10,682 bases of DNA from positions 1 through 10,682 of IMG/VR virus record IMGVR_UViG_2541047502_000022; one strand, 5' to 3'. Positions 2,047 to 10,163 of this stretch are shown one piece after another. Below the pieces are notes generated by a model that was given only the letters and a program-made list of their open reading frames with translations, was not told the DNA's origin and ran no database searches. A program made the position numbers and the translations under genes. Each line of letters begins with the position of its first letter. Position 1 is the stretch's first letter. Source of the DNA: a virus (taxonomy: Duplodnaviria; Heunggongvirae; Uroviricota; Caudoviricetes).

Positions 2047-2192
2047 TCACGCTGGCGGCACACAGCCGCCACACATCAATCATCTGAACACAGAGCTATA
2101 ACCATGAAGATTGAATATACGCCAGAACGTGGGCGGGGATTCGTTCGCCCTGGTGAGACTGGAAAACCACAAAATTGGGGTTTTTCAGGCAT

Positions 2193-2226
2193 AAAAAAAG
2201 CGGCCCCGAAATGGAGCCGCCTTTCT
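2193..2226 (-). terminator. Intrinsic terminator for the minus-strand RHH operon
   Basis: On the minus strand, GCGGC (2220-2216), an 11-nt loop, GCCGC (2204-2200), then seven U (2199-2193). The stem can extend by G-U and A-U pairs. Confidence 0.45.
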
Positions 2227-2315
2227 GAACAGATAACCCGCTGCGCCTTATGTGTATATGATCCCAAACATAAGCACGGGGATGATAGCCGCTATCAGGC
2301 TGGTGGGCAATGCTA

Positions 2316-2504
2316 TCAGTCTGGTTCAGTTCGTTGCCATACCTGCAATGGGCGCGTTTCCCTGTACTCTTTAAGGAATTGCTCAAGGGCAAAAGCACAT
2401 GGCGCGAATCTTTCTGATTCATGCTCTATCTTTCTGCGCCGTCTTTTCCGTGCCGGTGATAATGTTTTGGTCAATTCTTTATCGGTCATTGTGTTGTCCT
2501 GCAT
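2316..2504 (-). CDS. Hypothetical small basic protein, second gene of the minus-strand RHH operon
   Basis: 62-aa ORF in the same frame and strand as the RHH gene, starting 43 nt after its stop and lying before the minus-strand terminator. Contains a basic patch RKRRRRK. Weak RBS; alternative start at the internal Met (2489). Confidence 0.25.
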   Translation of the reverse strand: MQDNTMTDKELTKTLSPARKRRRRKIEHESERFAPCAFALEQFLKEYRETRPLQVWQRTEPD

Positions 2505-2546
2505 AGCAATGCGCCGTAATACCTCACACCACGGCGCTGATAGTTT

Positions 2547-2720
2547 TTATCCTTTGGGTTCTATGCCGCGTTGCTGTAATTCTTTGCGGAGAACGCGTTT
2601 AATCCAAGTGGCTAAAGATGTGTCGCCATCGGCCTTAGCAGCTTCTTCTAGCTGCGCTCTGAAGTCTTCCGGTAATCGCATTTGGTATGGAGGCGAACGT
2701 TTTTCTAATGGTGTTGACAT
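2547..2720 (-). CDS. Ribbon-helix-helix (Arc/CopG-type) DNA-binding protein, candidate repressor of the island
   Basis: 57-aa ORF found by hand translation of the minus strand: MSTPLEKRSPPYQMRLPEDFRAQLEEAAKADGDTSLATWIKRVLRKELQQRGIEPKG. The MRLPEDFRAQLEEAAKADG...S..A.I motif is the hallmark beta-strand plus helix A of Arc-like RHH proteins. Divergent from the plus-strand operon, with palindromic sites over its own start. Confidence 0.7.
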   Translation of the reverse strand: MSTPLEKRSPPYQMRLPEDFRAQLEEAAKADGDTSLATWIKRVLRKELQQRGIEPKG

Positions 2721-2762
2721 GGTAATTACCCTTTATTGCTATACCTACATGGTAATTACCAT
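2717..2762. promoter_or_regulatory. Paired palindromic operator candidates (ACATGGTAATTACC x2, core GGTAATTACC)
   Basis: The 14-bp direct repeat occurs at 2717-2730 and 2747-2760, each with the perfect 10-bp palindrome GGTAATTACC; the second extends to a perfect 14-bp palindrome ATGGTAATTACCAT (2749-2762). Centres are 30 bp apart. The first overlaps the RHH start codon and RBS. Confidence 0.5.
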
Positions 2763-2787
2763 TGTACTTGCCATTACACAAAAATCA

Positions 2788-2821
2788 ACGCCCCGCAGTG
2801 CTGGGAACACATACGGGGCGT
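2788..2821. other. 8-bp perfect stem hairpin (ACGCCCCG / CGGGGCGT) with 18-nt loop in the divergent control region
   Basis: Arms at 2788-2795 and 2814-2821 are exact reverse complements. On the minus strand it is followed by TGATTTTTG, so it may insulate the RHH promoter from upstream minus-strand transcription. Confidence 0.35.
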
Positions 2822-2850
2822 CTAACCAACAACGTAAACTAGGAGCCGTT

Positions 2851-3048
2851 ATGGTTGCCGTAAATCATATACCACACCTTGTACACACACAAACGGCCTT
2901 TGTGTGGCGTTTTCTGGCACTGAGTGCCGGAGAATCTCAAATCATCCACGTAACCGCCTGGACGGAACGCGAAGCGCGTAACCGTTGCCCGTCCGGTTGT
3001 GTTGCTGTATTTGCCGCCCGTATTCGTCAGGAGGTGCGCCATGATTAA
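2851..3048 (+). CDS. Icd-like small protein (putative host cell division inhibitor family), first gene of the plus-strand operon
   Basis: 65 aa; ATG 2851 preceded by AGGAG (2841-2845). The motif FVWRFLAL...TEREAR...VFAARI matches my recollection of the Icd-like family common in P4-like islands; assignment is from memory and unverified. Its stop overlaps the next start. Confidence 0.5.
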   Translation: MVAVNHIPHLVHTQTAFVWRFLALSAGESQIIHVTAWTEREARNRCPSGCVAVFAARIRQEVRHD

Positions 3049-3938: not shown

Positions 3939-4238
3939 ATGAAACTTAAATATTCTGGCTTAACTGCCAGTGGCAACACTCACCCTAAATTTACGCGCGG
4001 TGATATTTACCGCGACCAGTACGGCGGCACGGTAATGATTAAGGGCGTGGAAGAACGGCGCGTAACCTACCGCCGTGAAGGTTACGAATATGATTGCGTG
4101 ATGCCTGTTTATCAGTTCCGGCGTGATTTTTCTCTGGTACAGACCGCGCCGCATAACGTGCCCACCAGCAACGCCAGGGCACGGGCAAACATCCAGAAGC
4201 TGAAAACCATGGTTAACGGATTCAGGGGCAAGAAATGA
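3939..4238 (+). CDS. Hypothetical protein (99 aa)
   Basis: RBS GGAGA 7 nt upstream; its stop overlaps the helicase start (ATGA). No confident motif. Confidence 0.6.
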   Translation: MKLKYSGLTASGNTHPKFTRGDIYRDQYGGTVMIKGVEERRVTYRREGYEYDCVMPVYQFRRDFSLVQTAPHNVPTSNARARANIQKLKTMVNGFRGKK

Positions 4239-5635
4239 AAAGCGCACCGAACTTAAAAAAACAGCCTTACGACAAGATGACCGAAGTCATTATTTTTGCG
4301 GGTAGTGATGCCTGGGCACATGCGAAACAGTGGCAGGAACAGGACGGGCGACTGGCTGGCGATAATGTGCCTCCCGTTGTGCTGGCTGATGATCAACTGG
4401 ATGAACTGGCAGAACTGAGAATCATCGACGAGGGGCGCTATTGTGTCCGGCTGTACAAGGCAGGCCACATCAGGCCATCAAATATTAATGCCATTGCGCA
4501 CAAGCTGGCGGCGGCGGGTGTAACTGATGCGAATTATTACCCCGAAGGGATGCACAGCCATATGCGGGAGAACTGGCGCGAATACCTGGAACGGGTGCGC
4601 GGGAAAGAGCCGGCGGAAGAAAAAAACCACCAGCGAAAAACCACGCTACCGATGAGCGTTGGATCTACCGGATACGACACGCAACTGGATTACGTGGTTA
4701 AGGGGATTATTCCGGCGGTATCGCTATGCAGCATATACGGGGCTAGCGGGTCCTATAAATCATTCCTTGCCGGATCGTGGGCGTGCCATGTTGCCACTGG
4801 TCGCCAGTGGGGAGGCCGCAGGGTTGCACATGGTGCGGTTCTCTATGTGGTTGGTGAAGGCGGTATAGGTGTTCCGCGTCGTGTAAAAGCCTGGGAGGTT
4901 GTGCACGATGAGCAGGTGAAAAATCTGTATCTGGTAAACCGCCCCATCTTTCCGGCTGCCCCGCTTGATGTTGATGAAATGGTTATCGCTGCCCGTCAGG
5001 TGGAGCGGGAAACGGGTAAACCTGTACGCATGATTATTCTGGATACGCTGGCGCGTTGCTTTGGTGGGAATGATGAAAATGATTCCCGTGATATGGGGGC
5101 GTTTATCCGTGGTTGTGACGAACTGAAACGACGCACAGGGGCCACGGTGCTGGTGGTTCACCATTCCGGCAAGGATGAGACGAAAGGCGCGCGCGGTTCC
5201 AGTGCATTTCGTGCTTCGCTGGATGCTGAATACCGGATACGCAGGGAGGACGCAGGAAGCGAAGCGCTGGTTATCTCATGCACCAAAATGAAGGACGCGG
5301 AGGAACTCAAAGAAGCCGCATATGACTTACGCGTGGTGGAGCTTTTTACCGACGCTGACGGTGAATTAATCACGTTGCTGGTGGTGGTGGATGATCCGCG
5401 CCCTCCTGTTGAACTGGAGCGCATCGAGGAGGCAGGGAACAAGACGGAAAACCATACCGCGCTATGGGGGTGCATCCGTTCACGCACACAGAACGGCGAC
5501 AAGTGCACGATCCCGCTGTTACGTGATGACATGAAAAAGCTGGGGTATGAAATGAAAAACTTCCGGCGCTGGCTGTACAAGCTGGAAAAAGATGGGGTTA
5601 TTCGTATCGATGGGGATGATGTAGCGCCGCTATAA
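4235..5635 (+). CDS. Replicative helicase-like ATPase (RepA / AAA_25 RecA-fold family), candidate island replication initiator
   Basis: 466 aa. P-loop YGASGSYKSFLAGSWACHVATG (Walker A), hydrophobic stretch plus Asp MIILDTLARCF (Walker B), and VVHHSGKD, typical of RepA-like hexameric helicases. The N-terminal ~140 aa are uncharacterised. An iteron cluster follows immediately. Confidence 0.8.
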   Translation: MKSAPNLKKQPYDKMTEVIIFAGSDAWAHAKQWQEQDGRLAGDNVPPVVLADDQLDELAELRIIDEGRYCVRLYKAGHIRPSNINAIAHKLAAAGVTDANYYPEGMHSHMRENWREYLERVRGKEPAEEKNHQRKTTLPMSVGSTGYDTQLDYVVKGIIPAVSLCSIYGASGSYKSFLAGSWACHVATGRQWGGRRVAHGAVLYVVGEGGIGVPRRVKAWEVVHDEQVKNLYLVNRPIFPAAPLDVDEMVIAARQVERETGKPVRMIILDTLARCFGGNDENDSRDMGAFIRGCDELKRRTGATVLVVHHSGKDETKGARGSSAFRASLDAEYRIRREDAGSEALVISCTKMKDAEELKEAAYDLRVVELFTDADGELITLLVVVDDPRPPVELERIEEAGNKTENHTALWGCIRSRTQNGDKCTIPLLRDDMKKLGYEMKNFRRWLYKLEKDGVIRIDGDDVAPL

Positions 5636-5826
5636 AAGTGAGGAGCAAAAGCGAGGGGGATAGAAAGAGGGCCAAAATTAGCCCGCTCTCCCTCACTTTT
5701 CGACCTGTATACATCCTCAAAAGTGAGGGGTAAAAAAATACTTATGAAACACACACATAGAAAAACCGAAAATCCCAACTGCGACGAAGTGAGACGCTTG
5801 AAAAAGTGAGGCGAAAAAGTGAGAGG
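5633..5826. repeat. Iteron cluster, candidate origin of replication
   Basis: Six copies of the core AAGTGAG: 5633-5642 (+), 5689-5699 (inverted, CCCTCACTTTT), 5718-5729 (+), 5787-5794 (+), 5801-5813 (+), 5814-5826 (+), flanking an A-rich segment. Placement directly after the helicase gene matches PICI ori architecture. Confidence 0.5.
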
Positions 5827-5835
5827 TTGCGAGAA

Positions 5836-6087
5836 ATGACCCAAAAACGCAGAGACAGAACAGAGCCAAAATATAAAGCGTTAGACATGACTGAGCACAC
5901 CTTAAAGGTGGCAATCAGAACGATAGACCGCCACACGCGGGAAGGATACGCGAAGGAACATCCCGACCTGATAAGCGCATTCATGACCACGGCGGCGGCA
6001 AACTTTGCCACGCTGACAGAACGGGAGATTGCCGAAGCGGAACAGGTAACAACCATCAACGTTAAAACCGGAGAGGTGGAATTATGA
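5836..6087 (+). CDS. Hypothetical protein (83 aa)
   Basis: ORF 5806-6087. ATG 5836 is preferred (RBS GAGAGG 5821-5826); GTG 5806 lies inside the iterons. Its stop overlaps the ssb start (ATGA). Confidence 0.5.
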   Translation: MTQKRRDRTEPKYKALDMTEHTLKVAIRTIDRHTREGYAKEHPDLISAFMTTAAANFATLTEREIAEAEQVTTINVKTGEVEL

Positions 6088-6494
6088 CGGCACAGATAGC
6101 CGCTTACGGGCGGCTGGTGGACGACCCGCAGGTAAAACAGACCAGCAAGGGCACACCGATGACGCTGGCGCGTATGGCGGTATCTTTGCCATGCAGCCAG
6201 GCACAGGACGGACAGGCGACGTTATGGTTATCGGTCATCGCATTTGGCAAACAGGCCGGCTTCCTGGCTAAACATCAAAAAGGCGATGTTGCCAGCGTAT
6301 CCGGCACGATGCAGGTAAGCCAGTGGACCGGACAGAACGGAGAAACGCGGCAGGGCTGGCAGGTTATCGCAGACAGCGTAATCAGTGCCCGCGCGGCACG
6401 TCCAGGCGGGAACAGACGCAAAACCACAGGCACACAGGGTAATCAGCCACCAGCGGGAGGCGATGACCCTTACGGTGATGATATTTCGTTCTGA
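6084..6494 (+). CDS. ssb: Single-stranded DNA-binding protein
   Basis: 136 aa. OB-fold pattern (AAYGRLVDDPQVKQTSKGTPMTLARMAVSL...LWLSVIAFGKQAGFLAKHQKGDVASVSG...QWTGQNGETRQGWQVIAD), a Gly/Pro/Gln-rich linker, and an acidic C-terminal tip DDPYGDDISF like the SSB tail. Confidence 0.8.
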   Translation: MTAQIAAYGRLVDDPQVKQTSKGTPMTLARMAVSLPCSQAQDGQATLWLSVIAFGKQAGFLAKHQKGDVASVSGTMQVSQWTGQNGETRQGWQVIADSVISARAARPGGNRRKTTGTQGNQPPAGGDDPYGDDISF

Positions 6495-9443: not shown

Positions 9444-9620
9444 ACGGGTCCTTCCTGGAATTATGGCCCGTTACGGGGCGGCGACCTCGCGGATTTTCGC
9501 TATTTATGAGCCTTTTCAGGGTGGTGGTGGTGGTTTTGTTGTTTGATCTATCTTTATGAATGAAAAGGGAAAGATGCAAGCAATACACCAACCTGAAGCA
9601 GTAATTAAGTTGGTGTATTA
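9444..9620 (+). other. Lambda-type cos site (cosQ-like, cosN, divergent cosB)
   Basis: 9444-9500 reads ACGGGTCCTT...GTTACG GGGCGGCGACCT CGCGGATTTTCGCTATTTATGAG. The 12-mer at 9476-9487 is identical to the lambda cohesive end as I remember it, and both flanks are near-identical to the lambda right end and left end. Downstream (9500-9620) diverges from lambda cosB and carries a (GGT)4 run (9519-9533) and an 11-bp inverted repeat AATACACCAAC / GTTGGTGTATT (9584-9594 / 9609-9619) abutting the Nu1-like start. Confidence 0.75.
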
Positions 9621-10163
9621 ATGAAATCTCATCTGATGAACAAAAAAAACATGGCGAAAAGCTGCCGTGTAAGTGCGACAGCGTTCGACAAGTGGGGAGT
9701 AACTCCCGTTGAGCGTAAAGGCCGTGAGGCGTTTTATGATGTTGCCAGCGTGATAGAAAATAGGGTTAACAATGCAATTAGCCAGCTTATAAACGACAAA
9801 GGCGAGATTGACGATGATGAACTTTTACGAGTCAGGATCAGATTACTGACAGCACAGGCAGAGGCGCAGGAACTTAAAAACGATCGCGATCGCGGTGACG
9901 TGATTGATACTGAGTTTTGCCTGTACGCGCTTTCAAAGCTGGCGAGTCAGATTTCATCAATCATGGACAGCCTCCCGCTTACTATGCAAAGGAGCTTCCC
10001 ACAGATTACCCCCGCCATGCTGGACAGGCTTAAAAGGGAAGTGGTTAAAGCCTGTAATGCCAGTGCCAGAGTTGCCGACAACCTCCCACAGATACTGGCT
10101 GATTACTTGAAAGAAACAACCGGAAACGTACCGGAAAAGTTGCTACAGAAGAAAGGCGAGTAA
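9621..10163 (+). CDS. Terminase small subunit, lambda Nu1-like
   Basis: 180 aa. The C-terminal two-thirds align with remembered lambda Nu1 (LTAQAEAQELKNDRDRGDVIDTEFCLYALSKLASQISSIMDSLPLTMQRSFPQI...LKREVVKACN versus lambda RLTRAQADAQELKNARDSAEVVETAFCTFVLSRIAGEIASILDGLPLSVQRRFPEL...LKRDIIKAMN). The N-terminal DNA-binding region is divergent. Alternative start ATG 9636. No terminase large-subunit gene follows. Confidence 0.85.
   Translation: MKSHLMNKKNMAKSCRVSATAFDKWGVTPVERKGREAFYDVASVIENRVNNAISQLINDKGEIDDDELLRVRIRLLTAQAEAQELKNDRDRGDVIDTEFCLYALSKLASQISSIMDSLPLTMQRSFPQITPAMLDRLKREVVKACNASARVADNLPQILADYLKETTGNVPEKLLQKKGE

What the first reader, a model, noticed from the sequence alone, without database searches (positions are those of the whole stretch)
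5633..5826. Iteron array directly after the helicase gene, a candidate island origin
Six copies of an AAGTGAG core in both orientations within about 190 bp flank an A-rich stretch and sit where PICIs place their ori, downstream of the initiator helicase. The uncharacterised N-terminal 140 aa of the helicase is the obvious candidate iteron-binding domain. The last two iterons overlap the RBS region of the next gene.
Basis: partly seen in the sequence, partly recalled or inferred. Interest (0 to 1): 0.55.

Follow-up and report, generated by a model that had tools for sequence, protein, structure and literature searches.

The report
Satellite island replication origin, iteron array

Summary
All six AAGTGAG copies in the 10.7-kb window lie in 5636-5823, against 0.9 expected.

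The window is an O157/O55-type PICI at the roxA(ycfD)/phoQ site, of the kind catalogued in 2018 as EcCIRM12579. It is a sibling of EcCICFT073.

The array starts at the stop codon of a RepA-family helicase gene. The same layout follows the helicase gene in 64 of 77 relatives across Enterobacterales, whatever gene comes next.

Every copy changes together between elements: GTGAG, GTGGG, GTGGGGG or GTGCGG. The change tracks one position at the start of the recognition helix of a predicted C-terminal winged-helix domain (N/H/K/S at residue 442).

The N-terminal domain does not track it:
- Three E. coli helicases are 99-100% identical in the N-terminal domain yet have different iterons.
- The window's N-terminal domain is 62% identical to that of the EcCICFT073 Pri-Rep, whose iterons (TCTACC) are unrelated.
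- Relatives with no N-terminal domain keep the array.

Verdict: the origin reading is well supported by comparison but untested experimentally. The N-terminal binding idea is refuted. The kind is already known (SaPI/PICI origin organisation), so interest is modest.

The parts
4235..5635 (+). Initiator-helicase gene (466 aa), RepA/DnaB-like RecA-fold (SF4-type) core at residues 148-315
   Evidence: Pfam AAA_25 E 2.5e-43. RSF1010 RepA 1g8y is the only PDB sequence relative, E 0.005. RefSeq calls it 'helicase RepA family protein'.
4235..4600 (+). N-terminal alpha/beta domain (residues 1-122). Function unknown; it does not read the iterons.
   Evidence: pLDDT 67-90. 62% identical to the N-terminus of the EcCICFT073 Pri-Rep, which uses unrelated iterons. 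Only 42-49% identical to L003/L004, which use the same iteron. No Pfam hit.
5435..5632 (+). C-terminal winged-helix domain (residues 401-466), the proposed iteron reader
5555..5590 (+). Recognition helix and its N-cap (K441-K452). The N442 codon is at 5558-5560.
   Evidence: Among loci with a clear array: KN pairs with GTGAG in 23 of 23, KS with GTGCG in 6 of 6, KK with GTGGGGG in 32 of 32, and KH with G-type cores in 10 of 11 (alignment).
5634..5643 (+). Iteron I1, AAAAGTGAGG, overlapping the helicase stop codon
5647..5656 (+). Iteron I2, AAAAGCGAGG (one mismatch)
5661..5670 (+). Decayed iteron position I3 (ATGAGG or GGTGAGG in relatives)
   Evidence: alignment
5690..5700 (-). Iteron I4, the only inverted copy (CCCTCACTTTT on the + strand)
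   Evidence: inverted pair I2: 11 nt, 100% complementary
5701..5718 (.). 18-nt spacer between the inverted pair, containing the palindrome TGTATACA (5706-5713)
   Evidence: A (C)TGTATA(T/C)A element sits at this position in most of the loci printed and in all six E. coli sequences aligned
5719..5729 (+). Iteron I5, AAAAGTGAGGG, the partner of I4
5730..5775 (.). A-rich, A+T-rich stretch, the candidate unwinding element. Includes the conserved AAAAAAATACTTATGAAACA.
   Evidence: 66-74% A+T over 5730-5785 and 5730-5760. GC minimum of the region. The block is invariant in six E. coli elements.
5776..5785 (+). Decayed iteron position I6 (CAACTGCGAC; CAAGTGAGAC in L003/L004)
5786..5795 (+). Iteron I7, GAAGTGAGAC
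5802..5811 (+). Iteron I8, AAAAGTGAGG
5815..5824 (+). Iteron I9, AAAAGTGAGA, overlapping the likely Shine-Dalgarno sequence of the next gene
5825..5833 (+). Iteron I10 variant, GGTTGCGAG, directly before the ATG at 5836
   Evidence: In L005-L007 the corresponding GGTGGG(G) abuts the ATG.
5836..6087 (+). Next gene (83 aa, unknown function). Not part of the origin.
   Evidence: A homolog follows the array only in the E. coli relatives L003 and L005-L007; other loci have different genes there while the array stays with the helicase.
6084..6494 (+). Island-encoded single-stranded-DNA-binding protein, a likely accessory of the replicon
   Evidence: Pfam SSB E 9e-16

Best explanation
The array at 5634-5833 is the replication origin of an EcCICFT073-family phage-inducible chromosomal island.

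Proposed mechanism:
- The 466-aa protein encoded just upstream acts as both initiator and replicative helicase. It has a RepA/DnaB-like RecA-fold motor, and its C-terminal winged-helix domain reads the unit AAAAGTGAGG.
- The copies are laid out as two to three direct repeats that start in the stop codon, then an inverted pair around an 18-nt TGTATACA spacer, then an A-rich stretch of about 50 nt, then four to five direct repeats.
- Several winged-helix domains of one or two hexamers bind these copies. The A+T-rich DNA between the sets melts and the helicase loads itself onto it.
- This variant has no primase domain, so priming would come from the host. The island's own SSB, two genes downstream, would coat the single strands.

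Shown here: the repeats, their conservation and position, their concerted change together with one protein segment, and the fold of that segment.

Inferred: binding, melting, self-loading and origin activity.
For: 1. Statistics: 6 of 6 AAGTGAG copies lie in 190 nt against 0.91 expected for the whole window.

2. Identity of the element: 100% match to O157:H7 chromosomes between roxA and phoQ, with integrase, AlpA-like HTH, DUF4222, helicase, SSB, PerC, capsid, decoration and Nu1-like genes. It was catalogued as a PICI in PMC6092414.

3. Published rule and test: E. coli PICIs have their ori immediately 3' of the initiator gene, with two iteron sets around an A+T-rich region. The EcCICFT073 rep-ori segment drives plasmid maintenance, and deleting the ori reduces it.

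4. Module swap: in the same slot EcCICFT073 has a D5-type initiator and 11 TCTACC repeats.

5. Conservation: 64 of 77 helicase relatives from many Enterobacterales genera have at least 4 copies of a 7-mer in the 260 nt after the stop codon. Only 7 of 385 control windows do, and the density is about 140 times that of the flanks. The layout is the same and the downstream gene is not conserved.

6. Concerted change of all copies between elements, tracking residues 441-442.

7. Natural domain swaps place specificity in the last 66 residues. A divergent cassette, made of the 3' end of the gene plus the array, sits inside flanks that are 98-100% identical.

8. Fold: the C-terminal domain is a confident winged helix resembling ORC, Cdc6 and MCM winged helices.

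9. Precedent: SaPI Rep proteins use a C-terminal winged helix to bind iterons immediately downstream of rep, and they self-load. Phage P4 alpha also has a C-terminal winged helix.

10. Alternatives excluded: cosN lies elsewhere, at 9476. No promoter-like site was found, no credible Rfam match, and the DUF4222 protein does not track iteron type.
Against: - There is no experiment on this replicon type. The only functional test is on EcCICFT073, which has a different initiator and different iterons, and there the ori deletion reduced colony numbers rather than abolishing them.
- In the window two of ten iteron positions have decayed and two carry GCGAG instead of GTGAG, so this particular copy could be a weakened origin.
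- The protein has no primase domain, and no DnaA box, IHF site or GATC cluster lies in the region, so how priming is obtained is unknown.
- The residue-to-base correlation rests on few independent lineages. Much of it could reflect one cassette moved by recombination.
- The full-length model is poor (mean pLDDT 64.6), so the geometry of the winged helix relative to the motor is unknown.
Confidence: 0.8

Rival explanations
1. The repeats are mainly an operator. The helicase's winged helix, or another regulator, binds them to control transcription or translation of the downstream genes (the 83-aa protein, SSB, PerC and the capsid genes), for example by occluding the ribosome-binding site at 5815-5833.
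For: The last two or three copies overlap the ribosome-binding region, and in L005-L007 the last copy abuts the ATG. Winged-helix initiators often autoregulate (general knowledge of iteron plasmids).
Against: The gene after the array is not conserved outside E. coli, while the array always stays attached to the helicase stop codon. Most copies lie 100-200 nt from the next start codon and bracket an A+T-rich stretch, which a simple operator does not need. No promoter-like site was found. This could well be a secondary role rather than a rival.
Confidence: 0.07
2. The repeats are read by something other than the C-terminal domain: the helicase N-terminal domain, the DUF4222 protein encoded just upstream, or a host or helper-phage factor.
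For: The N-terminal domain is folded and uncharacterised. DUF4222 always precedes the helicase gene in the E. coli elements.
Against: N-terminal domains that are 99-100% identical go with three different iterons. The same N-terminal domain (62% identity) sits on the EcCICFT073 initiator, which uses TCTACC iterons. Relatives without the domain keep the array. DUF4222 proteins 95-98% identical go with different iterons. A host factor could not explain element-specific iteron changes.
Confidence: 0.04
3. In this particular island the array is a decaying relic. The family's origin is real, but this O157-type copy no longer fires.
For: Two of ten positions have decayed and two are variant. An Icd-like gene in the same island is annotated as a pseudogene.
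Against: The helicase reading frame is intact and keeps all residues that are invariant in the family. Six exact iterons, the inverted pair and the conserved centre all remain. The 211-nt query 5630-5840 is at least 99% identical in 369 complete genomes, and among the hits listed these include O157, O26, O145, O45 and O55 strains. Relatives also carry GCGAG variants at some positions.
Confidence: 0.07

Closest known systems
Replication origins of PICIs/SaPIs (Ubeda et al.; Fillol-Salom et al. 2018, PMC6092414; Qiao et al. 2022, PMC9371898)
   Same: The origin lies immediately 3' of the initiator-helicase gene. Short iterons form two sets around an A+T-rich centre, with copies in opposite orientation near the centre. 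The initiator carries a C-terminal winged helix, and its N-terminal domain has no known function. The element itself is a catalogued E. coli PICI.
   Different: The motor is a RecA-fold RepA/DnaB-like (SF4-type) helicase, not the MCM-like AAA+ Rep of SaPIs or the D5-type SF3 Pri-Rep of EcCICFT073. The unit AAAAGTGAGG is 9-10 nt rather than 5-6 nt. Only one copy is inverted, and the outer sets on both sides point the same way.
EcCICFT073 pri-rep-ori module
   Same: Same island family, same integration site and same slot between DUF4222 and the hypothetical/SSB genes. The N-terminal domain of the initiator is homologous (62% identity). The repeats fill the intergenic space after the initiator gene.
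   Different: The initiator core is D5_N/DUF5906/Pox_D5 (584 aa), the iterons are TCTACC, and the intergenic region is longer (288 nt). Only that module has been tested experimentally.
Phage P4 alpha protein with ori/crr
   Same: One polypeptide combines a helicase with a C-terminal winged-helix origin-binding domain. The roughly 700-aa relatives of the window protein also carry a Zn-ribbon plus Toprim primase at the N-terminus, as alpha does.
   Different: P4 alpha has an SF3 helicase. From my own knowledge, P4 needs a second iteron cluster (crr) several kb from ori; here no AAGTGAG copy exists outside the array. The window protein has no primase domain.
RSF1010/IncQ RepA helicase with RepC and oriV iterons
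   Same: The helicase core is the same family: AAA_25, with 1g8y the only PDB sequence relative. Both are iteron-containing origins.
   Different: From my own knowledge, in IncQ plasmids the iterons are bound by a separate protein, RepC, RepA is only the motor (279 aa in the solved structure), and priming is by RepB'. Here origin reading and unwinding appear fused in one protein.

Membership tests
PICI/SaPI-type replication origin | Lies immediately 3' of the replication initiator/helicase gene | tested here: met
   The first iteron overlaps the helicase stop codon. The same holds in almost all relatives printed.
PICI/SaPI-type replication origin | Two sets of short iterons flanking an A+T-rich region | tested here: met
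   Left set at 5634-5729 and right set at 5786-5833, around 5730-5775. 5730-5785 is 66% A+T and 5730-5760 is 74%.
PICI/SaPI-type replication origin | At least two iterons on each side of the A+T-rich region pointing in opposite directions (as stated for SaPIs) | tested here: inconclusive
   There is one inverted copy (5690-5700) facing 5719-5729, but both lie on the left of the A-rich stretch. The right set is all direct.
PICI/SaPI-type replication origin | Initiator recognises the iterons through a C-terminal winged-helix domain | tested here: inconclusive
   The fold is predicted with confidence and matches winged-helix domains, and the domain covaries with the iterons. Binding itself cannot be tested here.
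PICI/SaPI-type replication origin | Initiator-dependent autonomous replication of the rep-ori segment | not testable with these tools
   Done only for EcCICFT073, which has a different initiator and different iterons.
Gram-negative PICI (EcCICFT073 family) | Integrase, AlpA-type regulator, replication module and packaging/interference genes transcribed in one direction, in an island of about 11 kb at a specific att site | tested here: met
   Gene content and order. The roxA(ycfD)/phoQ site is the same as for EcCICFT073 and EcCIRM12579.
RepA-family (AAA_25, DnaB-like RecA-fold) helicase | Significant match to the family profile over the ATPase core | tested here: met
   PF13481 E 2.5e-43, 148 bits against a cut-off of 27. 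1g8y RepA E 0.005.
P4 alpha / D5-type (SF3) primase-helicase | D5_N and Pox_D5/DUF5906 helicase domains and an N-terminal primase | tested here: not met
   The window protein has none of these, whereas the EcCICFT073 protein has them.
Classical iteron-plasmid origin (pSC101, R6K, RK2, P1 type) | Iterons of about 17-22 bp in helical phase, plus DnaA boxes and often IHF sites or GATC clusters, with a separate Rep initiator that recruits host DnaB | tested here: not met
   The units are 9-10 nt at spacings of 10-17 nt. No DnaA box, IHF site or GATC lies in 5600-5850. The adjacent gene is itself a helicase.
Lambda-type cos packaging site | cosN GGGCGGCGACCT | tested here: not met
   The only cosN is at 9476-9487, upstream of the Nu1-like gene.

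The most novel reading that the evidence does not exclude
The last ~200 nt of the helicase gene (the winged helix) plus the ~200-nt array form a compact, recombinationally swappable specificity cassette. It would follow a near one-residue, one-base code at the N-cap of the recognition helix: N442 with A, H with G, S with C, and KK with a G-run. The same N-terminal adapter and the same C-terminal reader logic have been joined to motors of two unrelated helicase superfamilies. If so, this is a RecA-fold, DnaB-like helicase that finds and loads onto its own origin without a loader, and its specificity could be re-programmed to build orthogonal replicons.
Probability: 0.3. Interest if true: 0.5.

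Novelty: new member of a known kind. Interest (0 to 1): 0.33.

Why it matters
It places the replication origin of a satellite island carried by several hundred complete E. coli genomes, including O157:H7, O26 and O145 strains among those listed. The same island carries a PerC-family regulator gene.

It corrects where origin specificity lies in the initiator, which tells an experimenter which domain and which residues to mutate.

It also shows that the PICI arrangement of an initiator-helicase with a C-terminal winged helix followed by iterons has been assembled on a third, RecA-fold helicase motor. That makes the family a convenient natural series for studying how initiator and origin co-evolve.

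The general principle is already published, so the gain is incremental.

Tried and rejected
1. The N-terminal domain as a degenerate Toprim. By eye, TEVIIFAG resembles ITEGYAT, but a profile-profile comparison with the Zn-ribbon/Toprim N-termini of the roughly 700-aa relatives found nothing (probability 0.3, 12 columns). Pfam gave no hit at E<=1. Not supported.

2. Fold search with the full-length model. The model is too poor (pLDDT 64.6, pTM 0.43). The best hit, T7 gp4, had E 0.003 and TM 0.17, which is uninformative.

3. Literature search for the iteron sequence as text. It returned only unrelated primer and gene sequences. Fig. 2a of PMC6092414, which shows iteron sequences for several E. 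coli PICIs, is not held. I therefore cannot say whether this exact iteron has been printed.

4. Non-coding RNA. Only a chance SprD match at 19.8 bits against a gathering score of 100.

5. Promoter or terminator. No sigma-70-like site was found. There is one weak terminator-like hairpin on the minus strand, at the chance level.

6. Packaging site. cosN is at 9476, not in the array.

7. Diversification to avoid cross-talk between co-resident islands. Weak, because most co-resident pairs in the sample share an iteron type (L011/L016, L012/L019, L017/L018, L057/L059). Only L040 and L052 differ.

8. Plasmid records as evidence of autonomous replication. The 17-kb Klebsiella 'plasmid' with a related helicase also carries tail, integrase and capsid genes, so it looks like an excised or misassembled satellite and is not clean evidence.

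Full report
**What is in the sequence**

AAGTGAG occurs six times in the 10,682-nt window. All six copies lie between 5636 and 5823: five on the plus strand and one on the minus strand at 5692. The expectation for the whole window is 0.91, and none of 200 shuffles reached six. With the longer unit AAAGTGAGG, every match with at most one mismatch is again inside 5635-5824.

The inverted copy at 5690-5700 forms a perfect 11-nt inverted pair with 5719-5729 across 18 nt that contain TGTATACA. The stretch 5730-5785 is 66% A+T, and 5730-5760 is 74%, against 46% in the upstream gene. It coincides with the GC minimum of the region. The array begins inside the stop codon of the upstream gene (TAAAAGTGAGG) and ends 3 nt before the ATG at 5836.

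**What the element is**

The window is 100% identical to O157:H7 chromosomes, and related sequence occurs in 989 of 5,426 complete E. coli genomes. It lies between roxA (ycfD) and phoQ. The genes are an integrase, an AlpA-like HTH, Icd-like genes, DUF4222, a 'helicase RepA family protein', a hypothetical gene, SSB, PerC, a lambda-E-type capsid protein, a decoration protein and a Nu1-like protein.

This is the site and gene order of the phage-inducible chromosomal island EcCICFT073. The O55/O157 version is listed as a PICI (EcCIRM12579, 'same as O157:H7 EC4115') in the supplement of Fillol-Salom et al. 2018. The CB9615 copy listed there matches the array at 99.5%.

That paper states that E. coli PICIs have their origin immediately 3' of the initiator gene, with two iteron sets around an A+T-rich region. 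It also shows that the EcCICFT073 rep-ori segment maintains a plasmid, with fewer colonies after deletion of rep or ori.

**A natural module swap**

In EcCICFT073 the same slot, between DUF4222 and the hypothetical/SSB genes, holds a different initiator. It is a 584-aa D5_N/DUF5906/Pox_D5 protein. Its downstream intergenic region holds 11 copies of TCTACC in both orientations around an A+T-rich stretch. Initiator type and repeat sequence therefore change together, which is what an initiator-origin pair should do.

**Conservation**

I fetched five divergent E. coli relatives and 80 loci from other Enterobacterales that encode helicase relatives. These include Xenorhabdus, Pectobacterium, Serratia, Morganella, Pantoea, Kosakonia, Citrobacter and others.

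In 64 of 77 usable loci, the 260 nt after the helicase stop codon hold at least four copies of one 7-mer. Only 7 of 385 control windows from the same loci do. The density of that 7-mer is about 140 times higher than in the flanks.

The layout is the same in the loci examined in detail:
- two to three direct copies starting at the stop codon;
- a spacer of about 25 nt;
- one or two inverted copies;
- a (C)TGTATATAC element;
- one direct copy;
- an A+T-rich stretch;
- three to five direct copies.

The gene after the array is not conserved outside E. coli, so the array travels with the helicase gene and not with its downstream neighbour.

**Concerted change, and who reads the repeats**

The core differs between elements at every copy at once. 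It is GTGAG(G) in the window, L003, L004 and Xenorhabdus. It is GTGGG(C) in L005 and L006, and GTGGGG in L007 and others. It is GTGGGGG in Pectobacterium, Serratia and Morganella, and GTGCGGC in L008, L034, L035, L039, L042 and L044.

First, L003, L006 and L007 have helicases that are 99-100% identical over residues 1-147, 98-99% over 148-330 and 100% over 331-400. Yet they use GTGAG, GTGGG and GTGGGG. They differ only in the last 66 residues, mostly at 438-448: GYEM-KNFSRWLRKL, GYDT-KHLKRWLAKL and GYEI-KHFRRWLGKL. L004 and L005 repeat the pattern on a second backbone.

At the DNA level, a divergent cassette sits inside flanks that are 98-100% identical. It consists of the last 120-230 nt of the gene plus the array.

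Second, the window's N-terminal domain is 62% identical (E 2e-51) to the N-terminus of the EcCICFT073 initiator, which uses TCTACC. It is only 42-49% identical to those of L003 and L004, which use the window's iteron.

Third, relatives of 350-380 aa have no N-terminal domain, and relatives of about 700 aa have a Zn-ribbon plus Toprim primase there instead. Both groups keep AAGTG-type arrays.

Across the loci with a clear array, the two residues before the F/L/M-x-R/K-W motif predict the core:
- KN goes with A in 23 of 23;
- KS goes with C in 6 of 6;
- KK goes with GGGGG in 32 of 32;
- KH goes with G-type cores in 10 of 11.

The DUF4222 protein does not track the iteron type.

**Structure**

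The covarying residue N442 caps the third helix, which is the recognition helix of this fold. The ATPase core is RepA/DnaB-like (AAA_25, E 2.5e-43; RSF1010 RepA 1g8y is the only PDB sequence relative). Phage homologues share only the core, residues 132-380, and not the winged helix.

**Mechanism proposed**

After induction, the helicase is made from the unidirectional island operon. Its C-terminal winged helices bind the AAAAGTGAGG copies next to its own gene. The inverted pair around TGTATACA and the adjacent A-rich block are the likely melting and loading zone. The RecA-fold hexamer then loads itself.

This variant has no primase domain, so priming would be by the host. The island's SSB would assist. 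This mirrors SaPI Rep proteins, which have a C-terminal winged helix, iterons immediately downstream of rep, self-loading and an N-terminal domain of unknown function. It also mirrors P4 alpha, but on a different helicase superfamily.

Binding, melting and origin firing are inferred, not shown.

**Rivals**

- An operator role for the last copies over the ribosome-binding site is plausible as a secondary function. It cannot explain the whole array or its linkage to the helicase gene.
- Reading by the N-terminal domain, by DUF4222 or by a host factor is contradicted.
- A packaging role is excluded, because the only cosN lies at 9476.
- A decayed origin in this particular copy cannot be excluded. 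Two of ten positions have decayed and two are GCGAG variants. Against this, the helicase is intact, and the 211-nt query 5630-5840 is at least 99% identical in 369 genomes.

**Novelty and score**

The element, the rule for where its origin lies and the winged-helix logic are all published for PICIs and SaPIs.

The additions here are:
- the explicit iteron map for the RepA-type replicon;
- the refutation of the N-terminal hypothesis;
- the assignment of specificity to residues about 438-448 of a C-terminal winged helix;
- the swappable winged-helix-plus-iteron cassette;
- the finding that one N-terminal adapter domain is shared by initiators of two helicase superfamilies.

This makes it a new member of a known kind, with modest interest.

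Noticed in passing
window 4235-4600; L002 5242-5616: The N-terminal ~122 residues of the RepA-type helicase are 62% identical to the N-terminus of the unrelated D5-type EcCICFT073 Pri-Rep. The same domain also matches records annotated as 'DUF5906' and 'primase-like DNA-binding' proteins, most of them next to DUF4222. It looks like a shared adapter module of unknown function, possibly a partner of DUF4222 or of a host replication protein.
   Followed up: partly
window 5290-5835 (compare L003 versus L007 and L006): A divergent cassette, made of the last 120-230 nt of the helicase gene plus the ~200-nt array, is embedded in flanks that are 98-100% identical. This suggests recombinational exchange of initiator specificity and origin as one unit.
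   Followed up: yes
L009 about 2586-2856 (Xenorhabdus beddingii): After a complete GTGAGGA array there is a second short run of GTGGGG-type copies (AAAAGTGGGGAGAAAAATGGGGAATGGTGGGGAAG). Two iteron types lie in tandem after one helicase gene.
   Followed up: no
window 9476-9487: There is an exact lambda-type cosN (GGGCGGCGACCT) 134 nt upstream of a Nu1-like gene (9621-10163). EcCICFT073 has a 144-aa hypothetical protein at the corresponding place and, according to the 2018 paper, no TerS homolog.
   Followed up: partly
window 4235-4610 versus L003-L007: The helicase gene is mosaic. The first ~375 nt are only 37-68% identical to L003 and L007, while the rest of the gene up to the 3'-end cassette is mostly 85-100% identical, so the N-terminal domain exists as distinct alleles.
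   Followed up: partly
window 2104-3048: A single 314-aa open frame here is annotated in RefSeq as an Icd-like pseudogene (missing its C-terminus) followed by a separate Icd-like CDS.
   Followed up: no
window 5633-5835: The plus strand of the whole array is 65% purine, and all but one iteron are on that strand. This is a strong strand asymmetry, and its meaning for the direction of helicase loading is unknown.
   Followed up: no
L088 (CP018459.1, 16,971-nt circular Klebsiella 'plasmid') and NZ_CP148328.1 (10,790-nt E. coli 'plasmid'): These small circular records are deposited as plasmids. L088 carries integrase, a related helicase, capsid, head-tail adaptor and tail tape-measure genes. For NZ_CP148328.1 only a DUF4222 gene and a primase-like replicase with the shared N-terminal domain were seen. 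They may be excised satellites captured as episomes.
   Followed up: partly
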